DNA from: Octopus vulgaris
Taxonomy: Eukaryota
Direction of reading: 5' to 3'
NCBI GenBank assembly: GCA_951406725.2
Contig: OX597829.1
Location: forward strand, 24,428,001 to 24,492,000
Length of the DNA: 64,000 bases
The notes below the pieces were generated by a model, which was not told the origin of the DNA, ran no database searches, and worked only from the letters and a program-made list of their open reading frames with translations. A program made the position numbers and the translations under genes. Below, in pieces: positions 1 to 62,042 of the stretch (the stretch's first letter is position 1; the number at the start of each line of letters is the position of its first letter).

Positions 1-716
1 ACAAAACCGAACTGCATCTCATCTAAGCAAATTCTCTCCCTAATGAGATGGGTTATGACCCTCTCTGTGACCTTCATCACTTGATCCAACAGTTTAATTC
101 CCCTGTAGCTATTTCTATCTAGAGCATCACCCTTACCCTTGTAGCAGTTGACTATGGTGCTGCTATGCCAGTCATTGGGTATGACTCTATTATGAACTAC
201 CTGGTTTACAATGCGGGTGACTAGGCCATAGCCCACATAACCAGCTGTTTTAAGCATCTCAGCAGTGATTCCTGATGGGCCGGGGGCTTTACCTGGTTTC
301 ATACCCTTAATTGCCTTAACTACAAGGGAGCTGTCTATTCGGATAGCTGGTCCCTCTACTGGCTCAACATTTGGCAGCCTCTCCTCCTCCCATTCATTCT
401 CCACATTCAGCAGTCTTTCATAGTGGCTTTTCCAAGCCTCTTTCTTTTCACCAACATTAAAAGCAAGTGCCTCATCATCCATGCGGACACATTTCTCTCC
501 TGTAACATCACTATTTTCTCTCACACACAGTCTAGCAATCCGAAACACCTCAGCTCTTTGGTCCTCACGTCGCTGGACATTGGCAAACTTCTTTTCTGCT
601 ACATCTTTGGCTATGTATACCTGCCGCCCAGCCTCCTTTTTGGCTACTTGGTACAGTTCCCTGCTACCCCCATCCCTCCAGGCTTTCCAGGCCTGTTTCT
701 TTGCACTAATGGCTTT
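1..716 (-). mobile_element. RTE-clade LINE fragment (5'-truncated second copy, runs off the window start)
   Basis: Highly similar to 8431-9127. Ends at a (TA)n tract at about 717. Retains DEMQFGFV where the other copy is deleted. Confidence 0.9.
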
Positions 717-1494
717 ATATATATATATATATATATATATATGAGGACACCAAAATCTTTTGACCTCTATGGGTTTTAAACCAGCCTTGATTATATGCAA
801 TCAATTAGTGTAGTAATAATCATTATACAATGGAAAAGGGGAACTTTAGAGATAAGAATTTATAGAGCATCAAATTGTAAGATCAGTCTATGAAATTAGA
901 GAGAGAGACAACACAATTGATCCATGGTAGCCTTAGTCTAGATGAAATATAGATCAGCTGTATGTTTGGAAGAGGCACCACACTGAATCTTCCTGAGAAC
1001 TACGTTAAGGGTACACGTGTCTGTGGAGTGCTCAGCCACTTGCATGTTAATTTCATGAGCAAGCTGTTCCATTGTTCGTATCAGCTGGGACCCTTGTCGT
1101 CACAGCCGACGGAGTGCTCTTATAAGGAAAATTAGTGTAGACAAATGGCTTGGGAGGTTTGTACGAGTTGCCATTTTATGAGACCATCTGTTTTTTTATG
1201 GGATAGTTTTGGACAAATGACTTTGTAAATTGTACGGCAATTTGCATTTCTATAGAATTTGAAATTTCTTTTAGGAAATATATTTGTGTGCATAGTTGGA
1301 TAGGAGAGTGTGGTTAGTCAATATGTTGCTATCTGGAACTGTGAGGATGTCTGATCTGCCTGTGGTGGTTGTAAATGATGAATGCTTTTCAATTATAAAA
1401 GCCCATGTTTGTAGTGTGTGTGTGTGTGTGTGTGAATTTGTATTTCTGTACAATTTTATTGGAAAATATATTTATGAGTGGATGGGTGCATGTG

Positions 1495-6802: not shown

Positions 6803-9800
6803 ATCATCATCATCGTTTAACGTCCGTTTTCCGCGCTAGCACGGGTTGGACGGTTCGACCAGGGTCTGGGAAGCCAGGGGCTGCACCAGGCTCCAGTCTG
6901 ATCTGGCAGTGTTTCTACATCTGGATGCCCTTCCTAACGCCAACCACTCCGCGAGTGTAGTGGGTGCTTTTTACGTGCCACCTGCACAGGTGCCAGGGGG
7001 GTCTGGCATCGGCCACGATCGGTTGGTGCTTTTAATGTGCCACTGGCACGGAAGCCAGCCAAGGCGGCGCTGGCATCGGCCACGTTCGGATGGTGCTTTT
7101 TATGTGCCACCGGCACAGAAGCAAGTCGAGGCGGCGCTGGCAACGGCCATGTTCGGATGGTGCTTTTTATGTGCCACCGGCACAGGTATCACAACTACTA
7201 TTTCTATTTATTTCGATGTTCATGTACTTGACTCAACAGGTCTCCTCAAGCACAGCGAGATGTTCTGGGATCCAAAGTACTTTGAATGAGCAGGGGCTAT
7301 GCGGAACTGGTGCAGGAAGCAGCCTGGGTTTTTGCAGTCACAGCATATCTCCAGAGATCTCGGTCCTTCACCATTGCCTCAGTGAGGCCCAACGCTCTGA
7401 GGTCATGCTTGACTACCTCATCCCATGTCTTCCTGGGTCTACCTCTCCCCCTGATTCCTTCAACTGTTTGGGAGCGGCACTTCTTCACACATCTCTTCTC
7501 ATCCATCCGCAGTACATGACCATACCATCGCTCTTACACACCACATCTCATGCTACTTATGTCTAGCATTTCTCTCAGGGTGCTTACACTCTGTCGTGCA
7601 TTCACACTGACATTACATATCCAGCGGATCATGCTAGCTTCATTTCTTTCAAGTATACACATGTCCTCTGCAGTCACGTCCCATGTTTCACTACCGTGAA
7701 GCATGGCAGTTTGCACACATGCATCATACAATCTACCTTTCACTCTGAGTTAGAGATCCTTTGTCGCCAGTAGTGGTAGGAGCTTTCTGAACTTTGCCCA
7801 GGCTATTCGTATTCTAGTGGTGACACTCTCTGAGCATCCACCTCCACTACTAACTTGGTCACCCAGGTAGCGGAAACTATCGACTACTTCTAGTTTCTCC
7901 CCCTGGAGTGTGATGGAATCTGTTTTCTGAGTATTTGTAGTGTCTATTGTCCCTGTGCATCTGCCGCACATGAAAGCTATCTTATCAGTTAATTTCCCTT
8001 TGATGTTGCTGCACCTCTTATGTGTCCATAGCTTACACTGGGTGCATCTTATGGAGTTTCTACCTACACCTTTCCTACAGATCGAGCAGGGCCACCTGCC
8101 TGATGGGGTGTGTGCTGAGTTCGCCTTTCTGCTTACTATAACTTTGGTCTTCGCTACATTTACTCTAAGGCCCTTTGATTCTAACCCTTGTCTCCACACC
8201 CGAAATTTCTTTTCTAGTTTCGGTAGTGATTCTGCTATGAGAGCCAGTTCATCAGCATAGAGGAGCTCCCAGGGGCAACCTGTTTTGAATTCCTCATTTA
8301 TTATTTGGAGGACTATGATGAATAAAAGGGGACTGAGGGCTGAGCCTTGGTGTACATCTACTTCTACCCGGAATTCTTCACTATATTTGTTGCCAATCCT
8401 AACCTTGCTGACAGCCTCTCTGTATAGGGCCTGCATCTCATCTAAGCAAATTCTCTCCCTAATGAGATGGGTTATGACCCTCTCTGTGATCTTCATTACC
8501 TGATCCAACAGTTTAATACCCCTGTAGTTATTTATATCTAGAGCATCACCCTTACCCTTGTAGCAGTTGACTATGGTGCTGCTACGCCAGTCATTGGGTA
8601 TGACTCCATTATGAACTACCTGGTTTACAATACGGGTGACTAGGCCATAGCCCACATAACCAATTGTTTTAAGCATCTCAGCAGTGATTCCTGATGGGCC
8701 GGGGGCTTTACCTGGTTTCATACCCTTAATTGCCTTAACTACAAGGGAGCTGTCTATTTGGATAGCTGGTCCCTCTACTGGGTCAACATTTGGCAGGCTC
8801 TCCTCCTCCCATTCATTCTCCACATTCAGCAGTCTTTCATAATGGCTTCTCCAAACATCTTTCTTTTCACCAACATTAAAAGCAAGTGCCCCATCATCCA
8901 TGCGGACACATTTCTCTCCTGTAACATCACTATTTTCTCTCACACACTGTCTAGCAATCCGAAATACCTCAGTTCTTTGGTCCTCACATCGCTGGACATT
9001 GGCAAACTTCTTCTTTTCTGCTATATCTTTGGCTATGTATACCTGCCGCCCGGCCTCCCTTTTGGCTATTTGGTACAGTTCCCTGCTACCCCCACCCTTC
9101 CAGGCCTGTTTGTTTGCACTAATGGCTTCGTCTACTGCACTATTCCACCACCACGTAACTCTAGGTCTGGAAGGGACTTTGCACCATCCACAGACTAGGT
9201 CTGTGGCACTCAGCAAGCTGTCCCGTAGGAATTTCCAGCTACCTTCTATGTCCGACGTCTGTAGCTCCTCCTCTCTCTCATCAAATTTCTTGATGAGGAT
9301 GTCCCTAAATCTCTGACCATGTGAAGGGTTCTTTAGCTTCCAAATCCTTCTTTTCTGGATTGGTCTGTTTCTTGGAGTCCTGGCCTCAAGCCTAAAGTCA
9401 CTAATGATTAGCCTATGCTGAGGGATACATTCTTCACCCGGGAGGATCTTTGTATTTAAGAGCAACCCTGCATCCCGCTGTCTGGTGAGGATGAAGTCTA
9501 TTTGGCTAGCGGAGTCTCCTGACTGATAAGTTATAAGGTGGCAGTCAGGCTTCCTGAAGTTAGTGTTGCAGATTAAAAGGTTACATGCATCACAGAATTC
9601 CAGTAGTCTAGTTCCCTCATCATTTCTGATGCCAATACCATGGCCATCGTGTACCCCAGTGAAGATACCCGATTCCCGCCCAACATGCCCATTAAAGTCT
9701 CCACCCACAAAGATGAGGTCCTTGCCACTAGTCTTTGAGGTAGCCTGTAGAAGGGTATCATAAAAGTGGTCCTTCTGATCATTTGGTAGCCCCGCATGTG

Positions 9801-11220
9801 GGGCATAGGTGGAGATAATCGTAGCTGTGCCACTCTGTAGGACTAACCTGAGCTTAAGCACTCTATCGCAAACCCTGACAACCTCTATGACCTTATCCAT
9901 CCATTTCTCCGCAAGGAGAATGCCTACACTCCCTACAACATCCATGTTACCTTGCCAGAAGACTTTATACCTATGTGCCTTGCCTGTGAGGACTCTAGCT
10001 GAAGCACTTCTTACCTCTTGTATGCAGCATACACCAACCCATCTTCTCTCAAGCATCTCTACAATCTCACTAGACCTACTTTTCAGTGTACCAACATTGA
10101 CAGTGCCAACTCTGAAAACTGGGAAGGAGACGTGGGGAGGAGGGGTGCAATTCAGCGCCTGAAAAGAAGAGGGTTGTTGTGGTGGTGATCGTTTTTTAGG
10201 CATTTTTCGACTGATCTCTCTTCTGACCTGACAACATTCAAGCATTTAAGCATGTGTTAGCAGCATTGTAAGCATAAGCATTAAGGTCATTGATGATGTA
10301 GATGTAAGCTCTGTGGTAGAAATACTGAAATTCTAGGTGTTAGTAGTATTCTAAGCAAGCATTATGGTCATTGAGCAATGTGGTTTAAGCAGTGTAGCAG
10401 AAACATGGATATTCTAGAGATGGGGTGGGGTGGGGGTTCCAGCAGGGAGAAGAGAGAGAGTGAGGGGAGGAAATGGGGAAGAGAGTGCAGGCAATATAGG
10501 GGAGCACCAGTGGCGAGGGGTGTTAGGAGAAACGATGACAGGTAGGGGTGGTGGCAGTTTCTAGACAAAATTAAACATAGGATATCACGAGAGAGGGAGG
10601 GACTGGAAGGAGGGGAAGATAAGCAGGGGTAATACATAGTGAAATAGCATATTGAGGAGGAGGGGTTCAAGGAGTAGACACACATAATGGTGGTGGGAGA
10701 AGGGATATCCGGTATAGATGGAGTAAATATATAGAGAGATATCTGGTATTGGTGGTTGGGGTGGGAAAGGGCGGTTGCACCGCGAATGGCGAAGTTTTGA
10801 TTCAGGAGAGAGCGGCAGATATATGGAAAGAGAAGAATTAGGCAAACGGGGTTTGACAACGTACAAATTATCGTAGAGAGCGAGCAAAGGACAAAGTAAT
10901 ATGGAGAAAGGAAGAAAGAAGGAAAGAAAGAAGAAATTATCAGCACATAGGGACGAATTATTACGAGATAGGACTGAAAATGAAAAGATTATATTTTGGG
11001 AGACAATATCAACAGCTTAGCTCACGAAAAGAAACAACAAGCAGATTAGTAAATAGATAATACATTTTTTAGTGTTAGTGGCGAATGTAGTACGAGTGGT
11101 CAAGAAGTGAAATGAGGAATTCTTAGCTTATCTAGCTTCGGACATCGCTGCTCGATGAATATGGAGCACATGGGGGTAGGATATCCAGGGGTAACGCAGT
11201 TACGATTGTTTCATGCAACT
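6803..11220 (-). mobile_element. Near-full-length, inactivated RTE-clade LINE (APE endonuclease, RT and PHD finger)
   Basis: ORF 10245-7750 carries VGTVNVGTL, CCIQEV, GDFNGHVG, SQIDFIL (APE) and KAPGPSG, YRGIKLL, HQGSALSP, LLYADE (RT). It continues by frameshift in 7743-7534 and 7506-7297 (RGRGRPRKTW). A 3' region with tandem repeats and a (GAT)n tail extends to about 6803. The 5' boundary is approximate. Confidence 0.88.
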
Positions 11221-15398: not shown

Positions 15399-15471
15399 TA
15401 AAAGAAAAAAGAATTTTTTTTTTTTTTCAGAATAACATTAGTTAAAGAGAAAGCTGAATGTCTGTACTAAC

Positions 15472-15762
15472 CTAAAGAGCTCAGTTGAGCACATGCTGCC
15501 AGAGCAGCAGCTAGTCTAGGTACAATGCTGCAGTCAGAACTAGCATCCAGTTCCAAATCAAGAAGACAAATAACCAAATCTATAGAAGGCCGGGAAAGAA
15601 CAGTTCTGTCAGTTAACATATCCATAGGTGCTGCAGTTGGCATGATTGGGTAAACAGTAAATCTCCAACCCCAACCGTTAACAGAACCATCACTAGTAAA
15701 CTTCCACCGTAGTTCGTCTCCAGGAATTCTCAGTTCTGTTGACCAATCAGACCATTCCCTGC
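15472..15762 (-). CDS. HERC2: HERC2 exon
   Basis: ttcag|GC...TTAG|gttagt. [41 protein letters not shown]...[16 protein letters not shown]. 291 nt, phase 1-1. Confidence 0.96.
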
Positions 15763-16406
15763 CTGAAATAAAAAAAACAAAAACAATAATGATGATTTCT
15801 TTTATAATAACAACAACAACAACAATAATTGTTTCGCATAAGCACAAAGGCCTGAAACTGTTTCTCATGGGCACAGTGCCTGAAATTGCTTTTTTCATAG
15901 GCACAAGGCCTGAAATTTTGGGGGTTGGAGTAGTCAGTTACATTGACTTTAGTACTTGACTGATTCTTTATCAGTTTTTCACGATTGCTAGAAGTAAGCT
16001 TTGGGGGAACTAAGACAGCAACTCAGTGAACCTCATTTACATTGCTAATGTGAAGGTGCATGACCTAGTGCTAAATTGTGGGTTCAATTCCCCAACTGGG
16101 TGGTGCATTGTGTTCTTGAGCAAAACATTTCTTTTCATGTTGCTCCAGAGAATGTTGGCCTGCTTGCCTAGCCAGTTGGGTAGCATCGTTTGAAGGCTAA
16201 ACAATGGAAAAAAGTGCATTGTGACCAGTGATGTGTAACAACATCAGATAGCCTGGTTGGACAGGTAGTGTGTGATCACGTGACATTGCTAATATGGTTT
16301 GGAAAGGTATGAATGACACATTTTTGAAAAAAAAAGTTTTATATTTCATCAGGTCCCTATAAAATTGGTCTTGTACATAGTGAAAAGAAATTTGTATATT
16401 TTATAC

Positions 16407-18060: not shown

Positions 18061-18561
18061 CTGCACAATAGAAATAAATTTTTCACACACATAAACAAAA
18101 AAAGGAGAAAACTGAATTTAATCTATTTCCAAAGGAATCGTGAAATTTATAGCCACAGATTCTGAGAGCTTTTCCTAACTGAGGTGCTAAACAATGTACT
18201 GTAACTTAAGATATATTGACCAATTCAACAAAGTTACTCTGCATGAGGCAACAAACTATACACAATGGTTGTCTGTTAACAGTTATATGGACTGGGCTTC
18301 TAGTAGTTGGAATATTTCGGTCAAGAGCAAATCAGCAATAGTGTGAAAATATAAAATCTCTCTCTGTCACATACACAGACAGTTTTAGTGTACACTACAC
18401 TTACAAGATATACATAACACACTCATACAACAATATCACACACAAACAACAAAATACACATACACACACATGACAATAACATACATAATACAATACACAC
18501 ACATACAAAAATACTCACCAATTTTACCTTGAATTCAACAGACAAGAGCAAAAGAACTTAC

Positions 18562-18861
18562 CTGAGGATACGCCTTGTCAACGGCTTTTAAGATGCCAGC
18601 TAGTGTATCCTTCCCTTTCTCACCGGCTCGATTTGCAACAGCAAGTTTAAGAAGATCAACAAGAACTCTTGCATCGTCAGCAGTCAGTTTGCTGGTGAAC
18701 TCATCGAGGCCTTCGGGATAAGCTGGCTTTACGATTTCCAAAGTACTCGTTACTTGATCAGGTGAGGTAAATGTCTCAGCAATTATGCTAGTTGCAGGGG
18801 AAACTTTTGCAGCCAAACTGTGCATACTTGGAAAAGATGATATTTCTCCAGGACAAAATGT
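18562..18861 (-). CDS. HERC2: HERC2 exon
   Basis: tacag|ACA...CAG|gtaagt. SIIAETF...LDEFTSKLTADDARVLVDLLKLAVANRAG...AYPQ. 300 nt, phase 0-0. Confidence 0.92.
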
Positions 18862-19103
18862 CTGTAATAATAAGTTTAATAAGATGGATACATACATTAT
18901 ATATATATATGAATGCACCACCCACACACATATATATATGTATATGCATACACATTTATATATATGTATGTATACACATGCACATATATTAAAGACATTT
19001 AATTACAAAGTAGCAAAAAAATAAAAATATAGACCAGCATTCAATTCCTAAGTATCTATCCCAAGTTTCAATATTTGTACATATGTCTGAATACATGTGT
19101 GAG

Positions 19104-22025: not shown

Positions 22026-22634
22026 CTGGTATGAAATTAATTAAAGGGGGAAAAAAATATTAATTGATTTAAGTACAAAAACAAATGCTTTTGTTTTTAA
22101 GCAATAAAATGAAAATGGTTTCACTACTGTTCTTATGTCTTTTTTTAAATCAAGAACAGCAACAATGATGATGATGCCCAGCAGAACCTCTAAGACTGGT
22201 GGGAAGAGAGGATGAGAGAAACCACAATTCATGGCTTGTGGCAAAACTCCACTTCAGTCCTTGCAAATAACCCAGCTTTGAATCATCATACTCATTATTA
22301 TTATTAGTCTTAGTCAGGAAGTAAGAGTTGTGTTCATAATCCATTAAAAGGCCAGTAAAACTTGAGGGAGGAAGGGAGGAAAACATGCTTAAAACTAGAT
22401 GCCTTCACTGAGTGCTTTCCATAGAGTGGATTCAACTAAAAACATACAAGGTTCAGATGATGGTAAGCAATGGATTAAGTCTAATATCATCATTATCATC
22501 ATCATTTAACGTCTGCTTTCCATGCTGGTATGGACTGGACAGTTTGACTGAGGACTGGCAAGCTGGGAAGCTGAACCAGGCTCCAATCTGATCAATACCC
22601 CATATAAAATCTTTTATGATTTATCTTTTACTTG

Positions 22635-23368
22635 TTTACATGATTTATATTTGATGGATATTTGTCCTCACCTTGTTTGCTGTTAACAACAACATTTCAG
22701 CTGATATACTCTCCAGCCTTGGGGAAATTTCGAACCTGGGTTCTCATTCCTAAGGTATTTTTCAATGTTATTATTATTCAGGTCACTGCTTGGAATTGAA
22801 CTTGGAATCTTATGCCATATGCCTGTAGGCAATTATGGAGTGAATTTTAGGGCTTATAAATCTAATATGGAAAAATAGAGACCACCTCCCCTGTGAGATA
22901 AAGTTAAAATAATAGACAGAGAACACCACTGGAAAATACAAAAACTAAAAGAAGCAGCACATATGCTAGGACACAACCTCCTAAGCAGATGGAGTGCAGA
23001 TATGAATAGCATATGTGAACCGGTATTAAGGAAGGATAGGAGAATATTAGATTTATAAGCCCTAAAATTCACTCCATAATTGTCCACGGGTATATGACAT
23101 AGTGCTTAAGAGCATGCGCTACTAACCTCAAGATTCCGAGTTTGATTCCAGGCAGTGACCTGAATTAAGACAATAAGAATAATATTGAAAAATACTTTAG
23201 GAATGAGAACTCCGGTTTGAAATTTCCTCAAAACACCTGATGAAGGCTGGCAAATATATCAGCCGAAACATTGTGTTAACATGAAACAAGATGAGGACAA
23301 AAATCCATCAAATGTAAGTAATGTAAATGATGCACATAATTCCTCATCTCTTGAATATAGAACTGTAT
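22635..23368 (+). mobile_element. Fold-back Penelope-derived element (GIY-YIG tail between inverted tRNA-head/hammerhead repeats)
   Basis: Inverted arms at about 22635-22868 and 23044-23320. The spacer encodes a degenerate DHLP..DKVKIIDREHHWKI.KLKEAAHMLGHNLLSR. The right arm contains an A/B-box tRNA-like stretch and CTGATGA...GAAA at 23237-23268. Confidence 0.75.
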
Positions 23369-23815
23369 TATCTTTTATTTGTTTCAGTCATTAGACAGCA
23401 GCCATGCTGGGGCACCACTTTGAAAAACTTTTAATTGAATGAATCAACCTCAGTACTCACTTTTTTTAAAGCTTGGTATTTACTCTAGAAGTCTCCTCTT
23501 GCTGAACTGCTAAGTTATGGGGGCAAAAACAAACCAACACCAGTTGTCAAGCAGTGGTAGGGGACTAACACAGATACAAAGACACACACACACACACACA
23601 CATGATAGGCGTCTTTCAGTTTCATCAACCAAATCCATGCACAAGGCTTTGGTTGGCCCGAGGCTATTGCAGAAGACACTTGCCCAAGGTGCCACAGTGG
23701 GACTGAACGCGGGACCATGCGGTCGGGAAGCAAGCTTCTTACCACACAGCCATACCTGCGCCTATTTTTTACAAAACAAATCAAATCAAAATAAAATTAA
23801 ATTCAACAGTTTTAC

Positions 23816-33692: not shown

Positions 33693-35248
33693 GCTGGATA
33701 CCATTCCTAACACCAACTACTCCAAGAGTGTAGTGGGTGCTTTTTACATACTACCAGCACAGGTACCAGTTATGTAACACTGGCATCGGCTACGACTACA
33801 ATCTCACTTGGATTGACAGGTCTTCTCAAACATAGTATATTGCCAAAAGTCTCAGTCACTACCTCAGTGAGGCCCAATGTTTGAAGGGTACTTTTTACAT
33901 GCCACTGGCATGGATGCCAGTCACATGACACTGGCATTGGCCATGACTACAAGTTTGCTTGGCTTGTTGGGTCTTCTCAAGCACAGCATACAACTCAAAG
34001 TTTGAAGGGCGCTTTTTACATGTTACTGACATGGGAATAATTTATTCTTTGCAAAGCAAATATAACTGTGTTGTGTTTTCTTTGCATTATTGGTTTTGTG
34101 AAGAAGTCTCTCAGTGTAGAGAGGTAGGGCTCAACCCTGCGAGACTCCCTGATCACTGAACTATTCACCCTGTCGAGTAATGTTACTCCAGAGACTTACA
34201 GAAGGAACCCCTTTTTTGGCAGCTTGTATTTGCGATTGTACCCTTTTGATCACTATCTACTACTCCTCTGCATTGGGAGATCACAGTTTTAGTACTGTGT
34301 ATATGTAACTGTAATGTCACAGGAGAGAATTGTAAGATGGATTTATCAAGCTGAGCCAACTGGTGGGAGTCAAGGCAGTCAACAAAGAATGAGGTGGCTG
34401 AATAATACCAATAGTTTCAGTTGGGAATCTAACCAGAAAGTGTAACGATAGTTACTTCTGATAGGACCCTATGGAGATGGTACTTGTGAAGGAGGTACCT
34501 GAGGACTCTACTCCAACAATTCTTTCAGGAATGGTGGATGGGGAAAATGGATGGATGAAGTCTAATTGTTGAACTGTTAAAGCATTATTTGTGCAAAGTA
34601 CCCAGCTCAGTGCTTTATACTAACACCACCACTCATTTCTGACACGTGTAGAAGGCCACAAACTAGGAATAAGGGTTTAGGCAATTAAATTGACCTAGTA
34701 CTTAAAAGATAATTTGTTTTATTGATCCCACCTACAGAATATAAACAGTCATTACAACATACGGCAAATCGTTTCATCTAATGCTCTGATGAGTGTGTGT
34801 ATATGCATGTATTTGTGTGTAAGCACATATTTGCGTGTATGTGCATGCATGCCCCTGTGTTTGCATGAATGTGCATGAGTATATATTTGTGTGTGGATAT
34901 GTGTTTATTCGTGTGTGTGTGTGTGTGTGTATGAAAGTGTTCAAGTGTACATGTGCATATAAGTGTATGTGTGCACATATTTATGTGTGTGCATGTGCAG
35001 TTATGTGTCCCTGTGAGTGTTTCTGTCTTTACATGAAATCATTGGAGTACTAGTGATAGCAGCAGTAGCAATAACAGTATCAGCAACAACACCTACATGT
35101 GTGAAAGCAAATGCTTCAGAATAAATTTCACAACACACCTGTAAACAAGTGTAAACTCCTGTAAGATGTAACAGACTTCAATAATTCAAACATGAAACTT
35201 TCAATAAGATGTTTTATTTCTTTAAAAAAAAAAAAAATCATCTCTTAC

Positions 35249-35527
35249 CTTTGACCCTTTCGGGCCTCCTAGCTGGTCTTTGTCATTCAAACCCCAAACA
35301 CATACATGTGTTTGAATCTCACTGAAACTTGATGACCTTGCCTTTTTCCGACATCCTTGCAGAGAGCTACTTTGTTCGTCTTCATCATCCGACGCTAAGA
35401 AAGCAAAGTTAGCAGCACTGTCATCCTCATCAACTTTCCTTCGTCCCACAATCGTTAGGCCATGAACTTTGCAATCAATTCCACTACTTCGGCACTGCTT
35501 GATAGCAATTTCTATGAATCTATAATA
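35249..35527 (-). CDS. HERC2: HERC2 exon; DOC end and RLD2 start
   Basis: ttcag|TAT...AAG|gtaaga. YYRFIEIAIKQCRSSGIDCKVHGL...VWGLNDKDQLGGPKGSK. 279 nt, phase 0-0. Confidence 0.95.
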
Positions 35528-37807
35528 CTGAAAATATGAAGTGAGGTGAAAAGAAAAAGTCAATGAGTAGTTTATCCTCCTCAATAACAACAACAGCGAC
35601 AACATTATTGTAAAGTCTACTTTTCCATGCTTGCATGTGTCAGATGGACTTTGCTGTGGCAGATTATCTATGGCTAGATGTCCTTATTGTCACCAACCTT
35701 TGCCTATTTCCAAATCAGATAATATTTCACCATGGTTGAGTATGTTTTTAAGGAAGATTGGAAATTTTATAGGGTTATATGAAAGATTGGAAGATCAGAA
35801 AGACATTGCTTGTCTAACAGTTGTCTACAACTAACATGAGATATCAAGACAAGGAAACACACTCATGTATGTATGCATACACACACGTACACATAGACAC
35901 ATATTTGATGGCCTTGTTTCATTTGTTCCCATCAACCAAATCCATTCACAAGGCTTTAGTTGTTTCAGGAATATAGTTGAAGACACTTGGTACCATGCAG
36001 AGGGAATGAACATGAAACCCTGTTGTTGGGAAGCAAAGTTCTTAACCACACAGCTGTGCCTGGCTGTAAAAATTGAAGTTGTTTCAATCCAGATTTCAAT
36101 TCTCTGAACAAGAACAGTTATCTCTAAGACAACAATGTTTTATCTTTGGAGAAGATTGTTCTTTGTTTTATCTGATCTACTGAAAAACTCCAGAAATCAA
36201 AGACAGGCTCTGTGGAACATTGAGATCCAGCAAACAATGGAACCTGTTACCACTAACTGTAATGTGGAGGTGCACGGCTTAGTGCTTTGGGTGTTGCAAT
36301 CATGATTATAAGATTGTGGTTTCGGTTCTTGGACTGGGTGATGTGTTGTATTCTTTAGCAAAACACTTCATTTCACGTTACTCCAGTCCACTCAACTGGC
36401 AAAAGTGAGTAATCCTGTGATGGACTGGTGCTCCAGCCAGTGGGGAATATATATGCAGCACAGAAACTCTGAAGTTGGTCTTTTGAACTTATGACTCAGG
36501 AAAGATTTTGATGCTTTTTTTTTTTTCAACTAACTGAAATAGATACATTAATGACTTAAAATTTCACTGCTTTTAAATTTTAACTAATTGGAAGAAGTTA
36601 GAGCAAATAAATTTTTTTTTAAACTATTGATTTTTGAAATCAGCTGAACGTGGCTGATGCCAGCACCACCTGACTGGTGTCCATGTCAGTGACACATAAA
36701 AAGCACCAACTGATCATGGCTGTTTGCCAGTCTCCTCAGGCCCCTGTGCCAGAGGCACATAAAAAACACTCACTACACTCATGGAGTGGTTGGCGTTAGG
36801 AAGGGCATCCAGCTGCAGAAACATTGCCAAATCAGACTGGAGCCTGGCACGGCCTCCTGGCTTCCCAGAGACCGGTTGAACCGTCCAACCCATGCCCAGC
36901 ATGGAAAAACGGACGTTAAACGATGATGATGATGATTTTGTTTGTTTCCAGAAAATGCACACGCATACAAACACCTATCGACACACACACATTTGTATAC
37001 ATGCATGAATACACACATGTAGTTTATATGATGCAGTTGCGCAGTTTTTTGTCTCTTACAGGGTTATGGATATCTCCTGACTAAAGCACAAAACATTTGC
37101 CAAAGATGTTGTGCAACACAGTCAGAAGAGAGGCAACACGGTTGGGAAATGAACTTATATTAACTATACAGACAAGCTTGCACCCATGTACATATATATG
37201 TGTGGATATATTCACAGACAAATATTTATAATATATACATACATAAAGATAAATCCTATAGGCACAAGGCCTGAAATTTCGAGGCAGGGCGTTAGTTGAT
37301 TACATCGACCCTAGTGCTCAACTGATATTTATTTTCTCAATTGCAAAAGGATGAAAGGCAAAATTGACCTCAGCAGAATTATAACTCAGAATATGAAGTG
37401 AGAAGAAATACTGCAAAGCATTTGTCTGGCACACTAACAATTCTACCAGGGCATTGCCTTACTGTATATAACTCTTCATCATCATCATCATCATCATTTA
37501 ATGTCTGCCTTCCATGCTGGCATGGGTTGGACAGTTTGATAAGAGCCAACCAGATAGAGGACAGCACCAAACTTCTGTGTCTGTTTTGGCTTGGTTTTTA
37601 TGGCTGAATGTCCTTCCTAACACCAATCACTCCATAGATTGGACTGAGTGCTTTTTATGAGGCATGAGCACAAGTGAGGTCAGTTTTGGCATGGTTCTTA
37701 AATACGAATTAGTTGCAGAGTAGCAACAAAAATATATTTGAAAGAGAGAGAGGGAGAGAGAGAAATGGTAGCATTTTTGTGTGTTTGCTTGTATCATAGA
37801 AAATTAA

Positions 37808-38295: not shown

Positions 38296-38706
38296 CTTTG
38301 AAATGGAAAAATAAAGAAGAAAAATATATAAAGTTGTGAGTTTGATTTGTGACAAGAGGATGAGTGGCTATATGTAGTGTAAACTCTATGCATACATGCA
38401 TTCGAATGTAACAGGGACCAATTGGCCTTTGGCCACTGTTTGTATCCTGTTGTGTCCACTACTCTGATTGATTGGTATTGGCACAATGTCTCCTACTCTG
38501 TTGTGGATAACCAGTCAGAGACTTTAAATAGCATCACTCTCATACCCTAATGACCTTATCCACCCATCCTTCCCGATTCTTTGTTCAAATTTGGAACAAC
38601 TGCCAATGTTTATGGAATAATTTCCTCTAATGATGACATAAGTCAAACAAACAAAAGAAAAAACTAAATTCAAATATACAAAAAGAAAAATTAAATTGAA
38701 ATGTAC

Positions 38707-38894
38707 TTTTCCTTGTGATCCAGCACTTTGCCAATAACCATTTCCTTCATCAATCAATCGTGATGCCTGGTTTTCTCTTGAAGAAACAGTCAGGTTTTTC
38801 ACACACATGTGCCAGTTGTCAATAAGTGAACCATTCCCAACAGAATTCACTTGTTTCTGCTTTCCAGGTTTTCCAACATCAATTGGTTCACAAC
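38707..38894 (-). CDS. HERC2: HERC2 exon; DOC/APC10 domain start
   Basis: ttcag|GT...GGAAAA|gtacat. VKNLTVSSRENQASRLIDEGNGYWQSAGSQGK. 188 nt, phase 1-0. Confidence 0.93.
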
Positions 38895-39019
38895 CTGAAA
38901 CGTACAAAAAATAATAGCAAATATGACAGTTTTATATTTTCATAAACAAGCATAAGATGGTAAGTATGTGTGAGTTTGGTGTGAGTATATGTATCTACAC
39001 ACACTCACACTAGAAAGAG

Positions 39020-45458: not shown

Positions 45459-46478
45459 CTGTAGAGGTACAAAAAATAAAAGAAAGAAAAGTCAGAAGGT
45501 AATTAATTATCTTTACAACCCAGTCTTTTCACACTAACTAAACACATTAGTTACATGTATGACAATTATAATAATCTATAGAAAAAAAAAAATTTGGGGG
45601 TCGATAAATAAAGTACCAGTTTCGCACTGGGGTCGATGTAATCAACTTAATTCCTTTGTCTGTTCTTGTTTGTCCCCTCTATGTTTCGCCCCTTGTGGGT
45701 AGTAAAGAAATATATAGAAAAAAAAAATTAAGAAGAAATAACATTTCCTCAACTAAATATTTTGTAAAACTAATTTCTTATCGAGATAGTCTGTAACAGA
45801 AATATTCTGCAGTCATCCAATGTTGTGATTTGCTAGAATATTGATCAACAAAATCTGATCAATCATGACCTTGCATGAAATAAGCTCCAGCAATGATTTC
45901 AAATTTTGACACACTTCTTTCTGAGCCTAACCATCAGTATAAATTCAGCACATCTTGACTACTTGACAGAGAGCACTGACGAAGGTGTATAACTGGTATT
46001 TATTTTCTCAACCTTAGTACAATGAGAAGTTAATGTCAATTGCAAGAAGAACCAAAGACAATACCATTTTAATCCCTTTAGTTACTATTTTGCATAATTA
46101 TTTTATAATATTAAAAGTATTTTGCCAAAGTTAGTGAACTGACAGGAAAAGAGAAAAGAAAAAAGAAAACCAAGTGTATTAGATTCAGATGCCTTGCAGT
46201 TTGATCTGTCTTTTGTCTCTTTGAAATTATTTCTGTATTTGAGAAATCCTTACTAATTTCAAATCATGTGAAATTTTTGTAAGAAATTTTGATGTTTCTC
46301 ATGATTTTTTTTAATTAGTAAAATAATAAAATTTTAAAAAATTTGATCTATAATCTCTTCAATAAGAATCTCCTGATGTGTATAGACATGAATGTTGGTG
46401 TCTTGAGTTTTTCTCATTCGGCCAATCCTATGATTCAATGCGTAAGAAAAATGGTGGTGTAGAAAGAATGTAGCTTAC

Positions 46479-46678
46479 CTCTTCTAATTCTATGTCATCA
46501 TCATCTAAATCATCAAAAATGTCAGACATAGATCCAGTCTCATCAGAATCTATATCTATAGAACAAACTGACATGTCAGAATCAGAATCGCTTTGTATTT
46601 TAAGGTCTTTGTGCTCCAGCAACCATCCAACCAATGACTCTGCACTTGGGGTGTCACACCCAGCAAGTAAGGAACCAC
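46479..46678 (-). CDS. HERC2: HERC2 exon; UBA helix 3 and acidic linker
   Basis: cctag|GT...GAAGAG|gtaag. GGSLLAGCDTPSAESLVGWLLEH... matches recalled VEALVGWLLDH. 200 nt, phase 1-0. Confidence 0.9.
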
Positions 46679-47174
46679 CTAGGGATAAGAGAATGAAAGA
46701 ATACAGAAAGTAATAAAAAAAACAGTAAAATAGCAATAGCAGCAATGACAAGGGTTTCTGATTTAGGCAGAGAGCAAGCAATTTTGAGGGGAGGGGGAGT
46801 ATTCAATACTATTGACCCAGTACTTGACAGACAATTTATTTTACTGAGCCCCAGAGGATAAAAGGCAAAGCTGACCACAGAAAGACTTGAACTCTGAGTA
46901 CAAAAGGCCAGAAGAAATGCTGCAAAGTACTTTTTCTGATGCAATAATAATAATAATAATAATCCTTTCTACTGGAAGCACATGCCTCAAATTTGGGGGA
47001 AGGGATTAAGTTGATTACATCGACGCCAGTGCATAACTGGTACTTATTTAATTGACCCTGAAAGGATGAAAGGCAATGTTGACCCCAGCGGAATTTGAAC
47101 TCAGAAAATAAAGATAGATGAAATGCTGCTCAGCATTCTGCCCAGTATGCTAACAATTCTACCAGCTTGCTGCC

Positions 47175-52373: not shown

Positions 52374-52967
52374 TTATATCTATATACCCATACATACACT
52401 CATGTATTTTTTATCTTTTATGTGCTTCAGTCATTGGATAGGAGCCATGCTGGAGCACTGTCCAGAAGGGTTTCAGTCGACTGAATCAAACCCAGTGCTT
52501 TTTTTTTTGTTTGTTTTTAAAGCTTGATACTTATTCTATTAGACTTCAGTCTCTTACTGGTGAACTGCTAAGTTACAGGGATATAATATACCAACACTGG
52601 TTGTCAATCAGTGTTGGATGACATAAAGCCTCTTATATAGATATTTAATGCTTTACAAGCTCAGCAACATAAGTGGCAGACAAGAATTGTCTAGCACTGG
52701 TGGTAGAATTGTGAAATTACATGATTTCAGCATGTTTGTGCTTCATCAGCAGCAGGTATCCACTTAACTGTGCATGCTAGCCAAATCTTGCTTCAATTGA
52801 TAAGTAGATAAACTGCCTATTCCAGTCACTGGTGCCATAAGTAGCTGGCAGGTTGAGTAAAAAATTAAATATTAGCAACAGAAGCAGTATTAAAGCCATA
52901 TAGCCACCTTTAAGATTCTACTTAATGCGAATGTATTGTAAGAACATTAGAATACTGCAGTATTTAC

Positions 52968-53143
52968 ACTTCTATATTTAAGAGAAGGGGAATTATGCCC
53001 ATTATTTACATTTGACGGATATTTGTCCTCATCTTGTTTGTTGCTAACACAACGTTTTGACTGATATACCCTCCAGCCTTCATCAGGTGTCCTGGGGAAA
53101 TTTCGAACCAGGGTTCTCATTCCTAAGGTATTTTTCAATGTTG

Positions 53144-53182
<39 letters not shown>

Positions 53183-53485
53183 TCAGTGTCTGGAATCGAA
53201 CTCGGAATCTTCGGGTTAGTAACCTGCACTCTTAACCACTATGCAATATGCTCACGGGCATATGGCGTAGTGGTTAAGAGCACGGGTTACTAACCCCAAG
53301 ATTCCGAGTTTGATTCCCAAGCAGTGACCTGAATAATAATAACATCGAAAAATACCTTAGAAATGAGAACCCAGGTTCAAAATTTTCCTAAGACACCTGA
53401 TGAAGGCTGGAGGGTATATCAGCCGAAATGTTATGTTAGCAACAAACAAGATGAGGACAAATATCTGTCAAATGTAAATAATGTA
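52968..53485. mobile_element. Palindromic head-to-head element of the same tRNA-head/hammerhead Penelope repeat family
   Basis: Arms at about 53001-53252 and 53255-53482 are reverse complements around ATATGCTC-AC-GGGCATAT. Hammerhead motifs at 53046-53091 (-) and 53392-53437 (+). Confidence 0.8.
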
Positions 53486-55940
53486 CAGCAGCTTTTGTCC
53501 TGAGAAAACTTCTTGTATAGACTTTCAGTGCTAACACTGTATTATATATCATATTACATATGATATAACATAATGTAAGTACTAACAAGTTGCCTGTAAT
53601 GACAACAGATATAGACCTCAATATCAATGCGAATAGAGGACAATATTCATTGGATGATACGATCATGGAGACTCATATACAGGGCTTCAAATTTCTGTGT
53701 CAACGATATGATGATCACTGCACTTCTTCAGCTGTCACAGGCCATTTTATATATTATCATCATCATCATCGTCATTATCATCATGTCATTTAACTTCCGT
53801 TTTCCATGTTGGCATGGGTTAACAGCTTGATAGGAGCTGACAAACCAGAGAACAACACCAAGCTCCACTGTCTGCTTTTGACGGGTTTTTTTTACAGCTG
53901 GATGCCCTTACTAACACCAACCACTTTGACTGACATAAAGCTATGTAGTCTACAATATGGATGATCTTGGATTATTAATATTATGACCTTAATCTACATT
54001 ATAAATATCTTAGCATATCCATGAGAAAAATAAATATTCTAAGCATACTAGTGTAAAATATCCTATTCCATCAATGTGAAGAATGTAAATGAAATTAGGT
54101 CATCAGAAACTATTTACAATATATTTTGTAATTGTATTTTCTGCAGCGAGGAGAACTATCAGCTGAAATACCTGGGTACTTGCTTAAGAACTTGAATTTT
54201 ATTTTATTTCAGTTACAAAAGTCCCAAAACTGAAATAGATATTGCAAGGCACCACCTTTGACAGCCCAACATTCTAATACACCCTTGAGGTGGAAGAGTA
54301 CTTTACTCATTGACCCTTGAAAGAGAGAATAACTTATCTGTGCATACGCACACGCATGTGCACACACACACACACATGTGCACGTACACACCGCATCTAT
54401 AATCATATTGAAACAATTATTATCTGCATATCCTTTTCTTCTAGTAGACTTCTGATAGCAAAGGAAGAATCCATGATTAAACTATTTGAAAACTGTTGAT
54501 CTTCACTTTTTCACAACACTTCCTGTTGATGGACTTGTCTTACATTTAGAAGAGGAGCAGGACTTTCCCAATAATCACTTTCAAAAAGTCTTTTCAAATT
54601 TTAATGACTGAAATAATTTCATAAGTCAAATGATAAACAAGAGCTATGATTTGCGTCCAACAACAAACTAAAGAATAAGAATAATAAAATAAATTGTTTA
54701 TGGGATATAGACAGACATATCAGATCCAACACTGTTTTAAAGGCACTCAAATGGCAGTGTGGTAAGAAGTTTGCTTTCTAATCAAATGGTTTAGGTTCAG
54801 TCACTCTGTGTGGCACCTTGGGCAAGTGTTTTCTACTATACTGCCAGGCTGATCAAAGGATTGTGGGTGGATTCAATAGGCAGAAACTGAATGAAACCAG
54901 TTGTGTATGTGTGTGTGTGTGTGTGAGATAGAGAGAAAGAGAGTGTGAGTGTATCTTTGTATTTGTGTCTTCTTAACCTACCACTTAATAACCAGTGTTG
55001 GTTTGTATATGTTCCTGTAAATGAGCAGATCAGGGAAAAGAAACTGACAGACCGGGAAAAACAAACTGACAGATTGGGAAAAAGAAACAGACTTTAAAAG
55101 TAAAAGATACTGGCTTTGATTTGTTTGTTTAAAACCCTTCAAGATGGTCCCCCATTATGGCTGCAGTCCAATGACTGAAACAAGTAAAAGATAATGGATA
55201 AAATATAGATCAACAAGTTTGTCCTTTATACCTTCTGCACTTACATAATTGCATTGATGAAGAGTATTTCTATCCAAAATATGAAGGTGACAAAAAATTT
55301 TTTTTTTTTTTTAAAACAGCCATAAAGAAAGTTCTAGTGGAGAAATGTCAGGTTGTTCATGCTGATGATATGAAAGGGATATATTGTTATTTACATTAGT
55401 GGCAATAGATTAATAATAAAAATAATAAAAAAAACATTAATGAATTATAAAATGAGGCATTATCTTACCTCCATCATTGTCATATTTAGAACCCACTTCC
55501 TCTGGAACATGAAACGATTGTCAGACTTATCTTGGAAACTTTTGGAACAAAAGCTTCAAAAATTTATTCCCCCCACATAAGTACACAAATTACAGAATAA
55601 TTCACAATTTGAGACTGAATATTATTATTTTACCATTGTAGATTATTCTCTTTTTCCCTGCACTTTACTAAATATCTCTTAAACCTGGCTATATTTTTAA
55701 AATTAAGATTCTATAATCAAATGTCATATGTTTTGAAACAATATGTTTTGAAACAATTTAAATCTGTACAAGCTATATTCTTTTTAAACAATACAATTAA
55801 TTCTAAAATTAGATATTATTATGTAATAACTGTAAATTACCACATTGAGATATTCTTTAGTCAAACACATAAACCACAACAATTAAGATTTATATATCAC
55901 ACTAGTTGTTATACAATAACACTTACTTCAGTAGTGTGTG

Positions 55941-60410: not shown

Positions 60411-61462
60411 ACAATATATATATATATATTGCTATTAAAATAAACGGGGACACAACTGATTCCATTGCTACATGATTACAGCTGATGTTACTCCTTCTCA
60501 TACATTCTGCTGTTGGTTATTGTTCTGCTATGAGATATAAATTCGCAGTTTACAACTGTTCCTATACCTGTGCTTATGAAATAAACAAATTACAAAACTT
60601 GACAAATAGTAATCCACTAGAGACAACCATCTCTGATTCTATAATAGCAACCTATCAGAGAACAACACTCAACTGTTTTCAAGCAAAGTAATACGACCCC
60701 AATCTAAAGATCAACACCCAGCTTGGACATGCTTTCAGAGAGAACTACAAGCAAATAATAACACTGTTTGAATGAAAAATTATGCTTTTGTTTACAATCA
60801 GTGTGCACATGTTAAGACAAGAGGAATTCACACTCAATCACATATACCCATTCAAGCTTTTTCCAACCTGCATCACCAGTAGAATTCTGTAGCTAACAGT
60901 GTCCATGCAGTGGGACCTAACCCCTTAATCATGAGGTGATTCCAGATCAAACTTCTGAACCCACACAGTCATACCTGTATCTATGAACTGATCTCCAGAA
61001 ATAATCACCAGGTTTAATGTACATCAACATTATCATTTAAAGTCAATTTTCCATACTGGCATGGGCTGTACAGGTCAACAGGAGCTGGTGAGCTAAAGGA
61101 CTGTACCAAACTTCATCTGCTTTGGTAAGGTCAATATGACTCGATGCTCTTCCTAACACTGAACATTTTACAGAATCTACTGACTTTTTTTATGTGGAAC
61201 TAGCACCAGTGAGGTCAGCAGGTAACTCACTGGTGGCATTGCCATGCAAAAGTACTCAGTACACACTGTAAAGCAGATGGCATTAGTAAGCGCATCCTGC
61301 CCACAGAAACCATACCAAAGCCGACATTGGAATTTGAACAAATTACATATGTGATCCAGTAAAGAAACAGTATAGAAATATAAAATTAGTTGTGGAGTTA
61401 ATTAACAATTAAACCCATTAAATTTTAATGTGAATTGTCATCAATGTATATTTTTGACTTAC

Positions 61463-61724
61463 CAAGAGCTTTAATGGCATGTTCTACATTCTTTCGGGGG
61501 AAACCCATTTCTTGCAACTGGAACACCACAGGAGGCAAAGGCTGCTGCAGTGAACTTTGTCGTACTCTTTTGGACTTAGGGGTACGGTTTGGAGATACCT
61601 GAGACACTGATGCAGAATTGACTAGGTAAGGCACAATATCTTCGCTGTCAGAACTGGAGTCAAAGACATCTTGTGGCTGTCCGGATACAGCTGTTAAGTA
61701 CTGACAAACAGCCATTGCTGCAGC
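61463..61724 (-). CDS. HERC2: HERC2 exon (first in window); start of UBA-like domain
   Basis: ttgcag|GCT...CTTG|gtaag. Encodes AAAMAVCQYL...QLQEMGFPRKNVEHAIKALG, matching recalled HERC2 AAALAVCQCL...QLMEMGFSRRNIEFALKSL. 262 nt, phase 0-1. Confidence 0.92.
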
Positions 61725-61735
61725 CTGCAACAGAA

Positions 61736-61776
<41 letters not shown>

Positions 61777-62042
61777 CAGCAACAACAACAGCAACAACAA
61801 CAGCAACAACAACAGCAACAACAACAACAATGATGATGATGACGATTTCAAATTTTGGTACAAGTCCTGCATGTTCGGGGGTGGGGCTAAGTCAATTACA
61901 TTGACCCCAGTGCTCAACTGGTGCTTGTTTGGTTGACCCCGAAAGAATGAAAGGCAAAGCCAACGTCAGCAAGCAGAATTTGAACTCAGAACAAAGACAG
62001 ATGAAATGCTACTAAGCATTTTCTCCTGACAAATAATAATTG

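What the first reader, a model, noticed from the sequence alone, without database searches (positions are those of the whole stretch)
22635..23368. Second copy links the tRNA/hammerhead repeat directly to a Penelope GIY-YIG C-terminus
Seen: the same inverted arms, here about 45 bp longer on the inner side (…GCAATTATGGAGTGAATTTTAGGGCTTATAAATCTAATAT), flank a spacer of about 175 nt. The spacer translates on + as degenerate WKNRDHLP..DKVKIIDREHHWKI.KLKEAAHMLGHNLLSR..DMNSI.EPVLRKDR. Established: this pattern resembles the end of a PLE GIY-YIG endonuclease, and PLE copies often carry an inverted partial pLTR at the 5' truncation. Inference: the tRNA-like head sits inside the parent element's 3' pLTR, and the 53-kb palindrome is a more strongly truncated product of the same insertion mechanism.
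Basis: partly seen in the sequence, partly recalled or inferred. Interest (0 to 1): 0.7.

Follow-up and report, generated by a model that had tools for sequence, protein, structure and literature searches.

The report
Penelope element carrying tRNA-derived promoter
This is a decayed, folded-back stub of an abundant Penelope-like jumping gene, likely from an octopus, whose family carries a tRNA-derived piece between its protein gene and a predicted self-cutting RNA motif; the stub is ordinary, but that piece may give the family a SINE-style promoter.

Summary
Observation confirmed. 22638-23367 is one insertion flanked by a 17-bp target-site duplication (16/17; 0 of 300 random controls). It has head-to-head inverted arms, a ~40-nt tail on one side and a 175-nt spacer. 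The spacer encodes the C-terminus of a Penelope-like RT-endonuclease protein (81-87% identity to two short proteins, one from Octopus vulgaris; 61% to an RT-bearing relative). Thirty nt after the stop codon lies a 73-nt tRNA-derived head (0 of 1000 shuffles), then a minimal dimer-type hammerhead motif. Other copies show the same ORF-to-head junction (12 of 32 listed contig pieces, four organisms), so the head is family-inherited, not a SINE dropped here. Three of 32 pieces leave before the head. The 53-kb palindrome is centred on a natural 12-nt palindrome at the head's first base, fitting snap-back priming. Inverted stubs, tails and minimal hammerheads are known Penelope features. A tRNA head with intact A/B boxes in a coding Penelope family was not found in eight literature searches; it mirrors schistosome Sm-alpha. 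Pol III use is untested, and RNA reads show no step at the head start. New variant; interest 0.4.

The parts
22621..22637 (+). Left copy of the 17-bp target-site duplication, part of the AT-rich end of another abundant SINE-like repeat
   Evidence: 16/17 match to 23368-23384; 0 of 300 random site pairs reach the score; the joined flanks align with two other window copies of that repeat
22638..22868 (-). Inverted copy of the element's 3' end (last 15 nt of ORF, head remnant, hammerhead remnant), without tail; 29-nt deletion in the head, 13-nt deletion removing the CUGAUGA box
22869..23058 (+). 5'-truncated, broken C-terminal end of a Penelope-like GIY-YIG-type endonuclease ORF, stop TAA 23056-23058; the unpaired spacer is 22869-23043
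   Evidence: GIY-YIG label for the closest relative P0001 and for P0009
23044..23327 (+). Sense arm, paired with the left arm; innermost 39 nt identical between arms
23081..23092 (+). Natural 12-nt palindrome (5-nt arms, 2-nt centre) in the family, overlapping the first five bases of the head; decayed in this copy; equals the centre of the 53-kb palindrome
   Evidence: majority letters at 23083 (606 of 638 reads) and 23091 (550 of 701), run X23; best centre 53254.5
23088..23160 (+). 73-nt tRNA-derived head with Pol III A box and B box at tRNA spacing; cloverleaf stems partly broken; donor tRNA not resolved
   Evidence: 5' 42 nt scores above 1000 of 1000 shuffles against 16 real tRNAs for all three heads; family-majority letters restore both boxes; A/B scan
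23232..23277 (+). Minimal type I hammerhead motif: helix I 5 bp, CUGAUGA, bulged A, helix II 6 bp, GAAA, palindromic helix III without loop; predicted cut after 23272; helix III position 23270 is mutated in this copy
   Evidence: G at 23270 in 1919 of 2682 reads (X23); descriptor from PMC4209133
23328..23367 (+). ~40-nt 'tail' present on one arm only
   Evidence: family ends pile at 23324-25 and 23365 among loose ends
23368..23384 (+). Right copy of the target-site duplication
52965..53486 (.). Sister copy: near-perfect palindrome of head + hammerhead, centre 53254-53255, heads at 53181-53253 (-) and 53256-53329 (+), tail on the left arm only, no ORF sequence, no significant TSD
   Evidence: arms differ at 27 of 232 columns; best TSD reached by 42 of 300 controls

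Best explanation
This is a dead, 5'-truncated insertion of an abundant Penelope-like retrotransposon family, likely octopus, whose 3' end carries in order the endonuclease stop codon, a tRNA-derived head, a predicted minimal hammerhead and a ~40-nt tail; it was likely laid down when the unfinished cDNA folded back and primed a second, inverted copy of that end. Shown: the anatomy, the protein homology, the 17-bp duplication, and the same ORF-to-head junction in other copies. Inferred: the element's endonuclease cut the AT-rich end of an older SINE. Reverse transcription then stopped inside the endonuclease gene at 22869. The cDNA end annealed ~175 nt back through a few bases of microhomology and copied the 3' end again, giving head-to-head arms with the tail on one side. 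In the 53-kb copy the same snap-back likely happened at the family's own 12-nt palindrome at the head's first base, leaving no spacer. The head was likely captured once by an ancestor of the family, from a tRNA gene or an older tRNA-SINE, and was then copied with it. Its boxes are intact in the family majority while its stems are not, so it may have served as a Pol III promoter for short head-hammerhead-tail RNAs. I put that last step at about 0.4.
For: Spacer peptide: 81% and 87% identity, E 1e-16 or better. Its best match P0001 is 71-74% identical to proteins bearing PF00078, whose clusters hold ~770-806-aa members, and scores 0.96 for a cluster in which 17% of members carry PF01541 GIY-YIG. 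ORF-to-head junction in other copies: 12 of 32 listed pieces over four runs of organisms A-D, 4 of 16. RNA depth just before versus just inside the head: 819 vs 791 (X23) and 489 vs 469 (X24). The head is tRNA-like outside the motif used to fetch the tRNAs, 0 of 1000 shuffles, and is not a close copy of the window's other tRNA-SINE heads (best E 0.13). Another inverted copy with a different breakpoint is visible in O. vulgaris protein P0002, whose N-terminus is the antisense translation of the arm's outer end, 11 of 12 residues. Eight opposite-strand joints at varied places among the 15 joints listed. The 53-kb centre falls on the family palindrome. Inverted 5'-truncated copies, 30-40-bp one-sided tails and palindromes at inverted junctions read as self-priming are described for Penelope-like elements (PMC8557442 passages; PMC3846280 passages).
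Against: No full-length or tandem octopus copy could be read (no genome; none in the collections). Three of 32 listed pieces leave the sequence at 23056-23069 and run on for 69-194 unlike letters (records 18, 27, 28; two may be one locus), and one of 16 leaves at 23096, so some copies or a subfamily may lack the head. Depth rises 1.7-2.1-fold from the head's 5' part to the B box. This copy's head is diverged, which could hide a step. Pfam does not call GIY-YIG above its cut-off in any of the 19 protein scans (best E 0.017). The 17-bp TSD is longer than the 8-10 bp reported in A. vaga. Within-copy arm pairs are not clearly closer than between-copy pairs (11.6-13.8% vs 11.1-18.7%; 4 of 7 informative sites). 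The junction microhomology could not be read from a parent sequence.
Confidence: 0.82

Rival explanations
1. The head-hammerhead-tail unit is also a Pol III-transcribed, non-coding element of its own, a SINE-like parasite mobilised by the Penelope enzyme. The 53-kb palindrome is then a full-length cDNA of such an RNA that snapped back at its 5' end, not a random truncation of the coding element.
For: The 53-kb copy starts at the head and holds no ORF. The A and B boxes are intact in the family majority. The sense arm has no run of four T from 23088 to 23367 (read), so Pol III would not be stopped. Depth rises across the head. Sm-alpha has the same promoter-then-hammerhead order (PMC6765202 passages).
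Against: No depth step and no listed pile of starts or loose ends at 23088 in the raw reads (tables cut, 1097 loose-end rows not shown). The natural palindrome alone explains the 53-kb centre. Only one such copy was seen.
Confidence: 0.25
2. The head is an independent tRNA-SINE that inserted into this copy, or into a few copies, after the Penelope element had spread.
For: It has SINE-like boxes and is followed by an (AAT)n-type stretch. Three of 32 listed pieces leave before the head. The genome is rich in tRNA-SINEs.
Against: The head is in all four arms of two loci and at the same place in contigs of four organisms. No solo copy in the 64-kb window. A single ancient insertion into the family's founder is part of the best explanation, not of this rival.
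Confidence: 0.05
3. The inverted arms arose from two separate events (a second copy inserting head-to-head, or later recombination), not from one fold-back synthesis.
For: Arm divergence within a copy is about that between copies.
Against: One TSD encloses both arms, the tail is on one arm only, the innermost 39 nt are identical, and the same layout recurs.
Confidence: 0.07

Closest known systems
Endonuclease-bearing Penelope-like elements with C-terminal GIY-YIG and their inverted 5'-truncated insertion units (PMC3846280, PMC8557442; passages read)
   Same: RT plus C-terminal endonuclease in relatives, head-to-head inverted 3' ends, one-sided 30-40-nt tail, TSD, palindrome at an inverted junction
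   Different: A tRNA-derived head with A/B boxes sits between stop codon and hammerhead. The promoters described in the passages read are Pol II-type (TATA/Inr in A. vaga; Inr/DPE-like in Drosophila Penelope, with no mention of tRNA or Pol III in PMC2377424). The TSD is 17 bp rather than 8-10.
Minimal type I hammerheads of metazoan Penelope-like elements (PMC4209133; first quarter and passages read)
   Same: Short helix I, long helix II with 5' bulge, G10.1-C11.1, palindromic helix III needing a dimer; pairs on opposite strands 100-700 bp apart are described there
   Different: Nothing in the ribozyme itself. All four window arms are mutated in or next to the core. That paper has no occurrence of 'tRNA' or 'octopus'.
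Schistosome Sm-alpha / Sj-alpha SINE-like retroposons (as summarised in PMC6765202 and PMC2770079; passages read, primary papers not seen)
   Same: tRNA-related Pol III-type promoter followed by a hammerhead
   Different: Those are non-coding, often tandem, with canonical hammerheads. Here the unit is the 3' end of a coding Penelope-like family with a minimal hammerhead; no tandem array was seen and Pol III use is untested.
Octopus tRNA-derived SINEs (Ohshima and Okada 1994, seen only as a reference in PMC4758252)
   Same: 73-nt tRNA-derived head with A and B boxes
   Different: The head is internal, not 5'-terminal, in the copies seen. It matches the window's other SINE heads only weakly (E 0.13 or worse). 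The named families could not be compared.

Membership tests
EN+ Penelope-like element | Single ORF with RT followed by a C-terminal endonuclease | tested here: met
   Met in relatives, since this copy is truncated: the spacer aligns to residues 530-578 of P0005 and 753-803 of P0193, both with PF00078
EN+ Penelope-like element | Endonuclease of GIY-YIG type | tested here: inconclusive
   For: language-model match 0.96 with 221 of 256 features to a cluster 17% PF01541; source label on P0009; IY..YxG, CxC, H, H pattern in the alignment (motif meaning recalled). Against: Pfam best E 0.017, below cut-off; low-confidence model without PDB match
EN+ Penelope-like element | Minimal hammerhead near the 3' end | tested here: met
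   Motif and helices fit the published description; Rfam gives no hit; cleavage not tested
EN+ Penelope-like element | Inverted 5'-truncated copy and 30-40-nt tail at one end | tested here: met
   also P0002
EN+ Penelope-like element | Target-site duplication | tested here: met
   17 bp for the 22-kb copy, 0 of 300 controls; not significant for the 53-kb copy, 42 of 300
EN+ Penelope-like element | Pseudo-LTR formed by a partial tandem upstream of a full ORF | not testable with these tools
   No genome held; no listed contig spans a whole element
EN+ Penelope-like element | Clade (Penelope/Poseidon, Neptune, Nematis) by RT phylogeny with named references | not tested
   No named reference proteins were on hand; the C-terminal endonuclease excludes Naiad/Chlamys as defined in PMC8557442
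tRNA-derived SINE | tRNA-derived head with A and B boxes | tested here: met
   ARAGORN calls the three-copy majority a tRNA at 80% of its threshold but not at 90%
tRNA-derived SINE | Head forms the 5' end of the element in most copies | tested here: not met
   Head preceded by ORF sequence in 12 of 32 and 4 of 16 listed pieces; no depth step at 23088. A minority of head-started copies is not excluded
tRNA-derived SINE | Transcription by RNA polymerase III | not testable with these tools
   RNA-seq reads lie about equally on both strands with no listed start or end sites
Sm-alpha-type / non-LTR retrozyme | Promoter followed by hammerhead | tested here: met
   Head 23088-23160, hammerhead 23232-23277; promoter activity itself untested
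Sm-alpha-type / non-LTR retrozyme | Non-coding short units in head-to-tail tandem with canonical hammerhead | tested here: not met
   Both window copies are head-to-head, one joined to an ORF; hammerhead is the minimal type; genome-wide arrays not testable

The most novel reading that the evidence does not exclude
An octopus Penelope-like family captured a tRNA-derived Pol III promoter just upstream of its hammerhead, and this promoter makes short head-ribozyme-tail RNAs that the element's own enzyme retrotransposes. That would be a Penelope-dependent SINE caught at birth, still attached to its coding parent, and a concrete route for the origin of Sm-alpha-type tRNA-plus-hammerhead elements. 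The 53-kb palindrome would be its direct product.
Probability: 0.25. Interest if true: 0.7.

Novelty: new variant of a known kind. Interest (0 to 1): 0.4.

Why it matters
The insertion is an ordinary dead stub. The family matters modestly. Which autonomous element mobilises tRNA-plus-hammerhead repeats is open (PMC7229834 names Penelope-like elements only as strong candidates). Here a tRNA-derived head and a hammerhead are joined to a Penelope-like endonuclease gene in many copies, so the link can be tested by a census of copy ends in public Octopus assemblies. The 53-kb copy, centred on the family's own palindrome, is also a clean case for the self-priming model of Penelope inverted repeats.

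Tried and rejected
Own genome: not held. Parent DNA: protein-profile scans of viral, metagenome and prokaryote contigs confirmed 0 of 32, 0 of 285 and 0 of 72 candidate stretches. DNA patterns in viral contigs gave 0. A hammerhead pattern in metagenomes gave 10 loci, none with a tblastn match to the ORF at E 0.01 or a blastn match to the head. One, L007, has a weak endonuclease end (iE 0.0035) about 45 nt before its hammerhead, too close for a 73-nt head. Rfam: 0 at gathering score over the window; 4 and 5 unrelated weak hits at E up to 10 on the two arms. Pfam on the 51-aa spacer: 0 families. AlphaFold model of P0001: mean pLDDT 58, no PDB match at E 0.001, uninformative. The PDB sequence search found only RT matches. 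A protein search with the antisense reading of the 53-kb palindrome: 0 of 3 candidates. Donor tRNA not resolved: best scores were Arg-TCT and Met among 16 viral tRNAs, and the best single match was reached by 11-64 of 1000 shuffles. No RNA holder was listed by the run search. RNA strand and ends: libraries of unknown strandedness, both strands about equal, no start or end piles; no evidence on promoter or cleavage. Summed contig depth is not used as a copy number. Several opposite-strand joints end at 23284 or 23320, where this copy has mismatches or a 9-nt duplication, so they are not exact breakpoints. Reading the tail as the ORF start is not supported by the N-termini of 15 long relatives, judged by eye. 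Earlier findings by place and sequence: nothing. PMC5785218 is not held. PMC8782182 passages had nothing relevant.

Full report
Setting. The window is AT-rich animal DNA full of microsatellites and SINE-like repeats. The named best matches of the spacer peptide and of its closest relative are Octopus vulgaris and O. sinensis proteins, so the host is likely an octopus. No whole genome is held.

Anatomy. 22635-22868 is the reverse complement of 23044-23327, with 32 substitutions in 232 columns. Between the arms lie 175 nt. The right arm runs on for about 40 nt more, to 23367. A 17-bp direct repeat (16/17) encloses everything (22621-22637 and 23368-23384); 0 of 300 random site pairs score as well. 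Joined, the flanks restore the AT-rich end of another repeat seen twice more in the window, so this is one insertion into an older SINE-like element. The left arm has lost 29 nt of the head and 13 nt including the hammerhead's CUGAUGA.

The spacer. The peptide lies in two frames. It matches 2 of 10 candidates in the large protein set, P0001 at 81% and O. vulgaris P0002 at 87%. P0001 matches 27 of 53 candidates, the best at 71-74% and carrying PF00078. The spacer itself is 61% identical to the last residues of RT-bearing P0005 and P0193, and relatives of about 800 aa are abundant. A profile of 172 such domains gives the spacer iE 3e-9; the next window hit is iE 0.06. The GIY-YIG label rests on a language-model match (0.96; 17% of that cluster carry PF01541), a source's own name for P0009 and the motif pattern (meaning recalled). 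Pfam stays below cut-off and the folded model was too poor to use. Family reads restore the frame and the Trp codon (71 of 103 and 547 of 562 reads, X23), so this copy is dead.

The head. 23088-23160 is 73 nt. Rfam and default ARAGORN do not call it. A motif from its 3' part fell in an ARAGORN tRNA in 16 of 29 viral loci. The 5' 42 nt, not used in that search, scored above all 1000 shuffles against those 16 tRNAs for each of the three heads. Family-majority letters restore the A box (706 of 716, 557 of 710, 821 of 844 reads at three sites) and the B box (1114 of 1359) (X23), while the acceptor and T stems do not pair (read). It is not a close copy of the window's other tRNA-SINE heads (best E 0.13). 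The donor tRNA is unresolved.

The hammerhead. At 23232-23277 the four-arm majority forms helix I of 5 bp, a bulged A, helix II of 6 bp and a loop-less palindromic helix III. This is the minimal dimer type of PMC4209133 (first quarter and passages read). Each of the four arms has a change or deletion in or next to the core.

Is the head part of the parent? Contigs of four runs from four coded organisms were laid on the locus. Of 32 pieces listed (the longest of about 399,000), 12 run from at least 31 nt of ORF through most of the head, with 18-37 differences from this copy; some are the same locus in different runs. Three leave at 23056-23069 and run on with unlike sequence. In one search, 4 of 16 listed pieces bridge and one leaves at 23096. 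Raw RNA reads (8728 and 6686 laid) show the same depth just before and just inside the head (819 vs 791; 489 vs 469), rising to 1381 and 1030 at the B box and 3275 and 2450 near the end. That is the gradient expected from 5' truncation plus inverted arms. This copy's head is diverged, which lowers mapping there, so a minority of head-started copies is not excluded. Two sister-family proteins read through an antisense hammerhead, but the next 26-30 residues do not resemble the antisense head, a weak hint that the head is lineage-specific.

Mechanism of the inversion. Family ends pile at 23324-25 and 23365, defining the tail. Eight of 15 listed joints are opposite-strand, at varied places. P0002 begins with the antisense translation of the arm's outer end fused to the endonuclease (11 of 12 residues), an independent copy with another breakpoint. 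The 53-kb palindrome has its best centre at 53254.5. That is the 2-nt centre of a 12-nt palindrome that the family majority has at 23081-23092, overlapping the head's first five bases (606 of 638 and 550 of 701 reads). Inverted 5'-truncated copies and 30-40-bp tails are described in PMC8557442 (passages). Palindromes at inverted junctions are read as self-priming in PMC3846280 (passages), whose authors favour an antisense RNA template; snap-back of the cDNA end is my inference and gives the same head-to-head layout. Against a clean single-template story, arm pairs within a copy (11.6%, 13.8%) are not clearly closer than pairs between copies (11.1-18.7%), as expected if both copies came from near-identical masters and then decayed. 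About 6-7% per arm would be roughly 15-20 million years on the calibration in PMC13282606 (first third read); this is an inference.

What is known. The stub, tail, TSD and minimal hammerhead are standard for endonuclease-bearing Penelope-like elements. A tRNA-related Pol III promoter followed by a hammerhead is known in schistosome Sm-alpha and Sj-alpha (passages of PMC6765202 and PMC2770079; primary papers not seen). I found no report of a tRNA head inside a coding Penelope-like family in eight searches. Most hits were seen as listings only, and ten papers were read in passages or parts. Repbase, Dfam, subscription papers (including Ohshima and Okada 1994 and Lunse et al.) and the O. vulgaris repeat library (not in the 5,371-character supplement searched) were not seen, and the family may be deposited there. 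An earlier AI note on another genome (e1-7881736) describes tandem tRNA-like units with Penelope-type ends; it is a lead, not support.

Verdict. Observation confirmed, interpretation supported. The locus is an ordinary dead Penelope-like stub (0.82). The family-level tRNA head upstream of the hammerhead is a new variant as far as these searches reach. That it worked as a Pol III promoter is inferred (about 0.4), and that it founded a Penelope-dependent SINE is possible (0.25). Interest 0.4.

Noticed in passing
window 15467-15937, 18535-19002, 35222-35683, 38524-38931, 46428-46802, 61425-61847 (all - strand): Exon-like frames of a large host gene on the - strand; the peptides look like HERC2 (recalled, not confirmed: Pfam gave only a weak UBA-like hit). 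Both Penelope copies would then be intronic.
   Followed up: partly
window 7750-10245 (-) and 3-800 (-): LINE ORF of 831 aa with endonuclease, RT and PHD-like finger and a second copy 96% identical over 300 nt; looks like a young RTE-type element (clade recalled).
   Followed up: partly
window 22830-22868 and 23044-23082: The innermost 39 nt of the two arms are identical though the arms differ at 13.8% overall; possibly chance in CpG-free sequence or conversion near the loop.
   Followed up: no
window 22820-22831 (-): In the left arm the 12-nt family palindrome has two changes that keep it palindromic.
   Followed up: no
window 23273-23284: RNA reads (5 in X23, 17 in X24) show an opposite-strand joint at 23273/23284, beside the predicted hammerhead cut and around an 8-nt palindrome; may be one locus or an alignment-end effect.
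   Followed up: no
window 23324: 681 and 334 RNA reads go on after 23324 with one fairly uniform sequence unlike the tail (agreement about 0.7): another subfamily end or one highly expressed locus.
   Followed up: no
window 22972: About half of the reads (399 of 807 in X23) carry an extra codon here, as P0001 does and P0002 does not: two subfamilies.
   Followed up: no
proteins P0007, P0010, P0200: Predicted proteins whose N-termini appear to be read through an antisense hammerhead arm (P0007, P0010; P0200 by eye): gene callers turn Penelope inversions into chimeric proteins, which record breakpoints.
   Followed up: partly
protein cluster of P0025: The closest named non-octopus relatives seen are from the barnacle Amphibalanus amphitrite (59% over the endonuclease); unnamed relatives reach 74%. 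Host range and possible transfer were not examined.
   Followed up: no
L001-L007, L009, L010: Metagenome contigs with hammerhead-like motifs sharing the same helix II stem in animal-like AT-rich DNA, without a tRNA head match.
   Followed up: partly
window 1667, 14222, 21153, 23752, 27565, 30480, 47152: Heads of several other tRNA-SINE-like families with A/B boxes.
   Followed up: no
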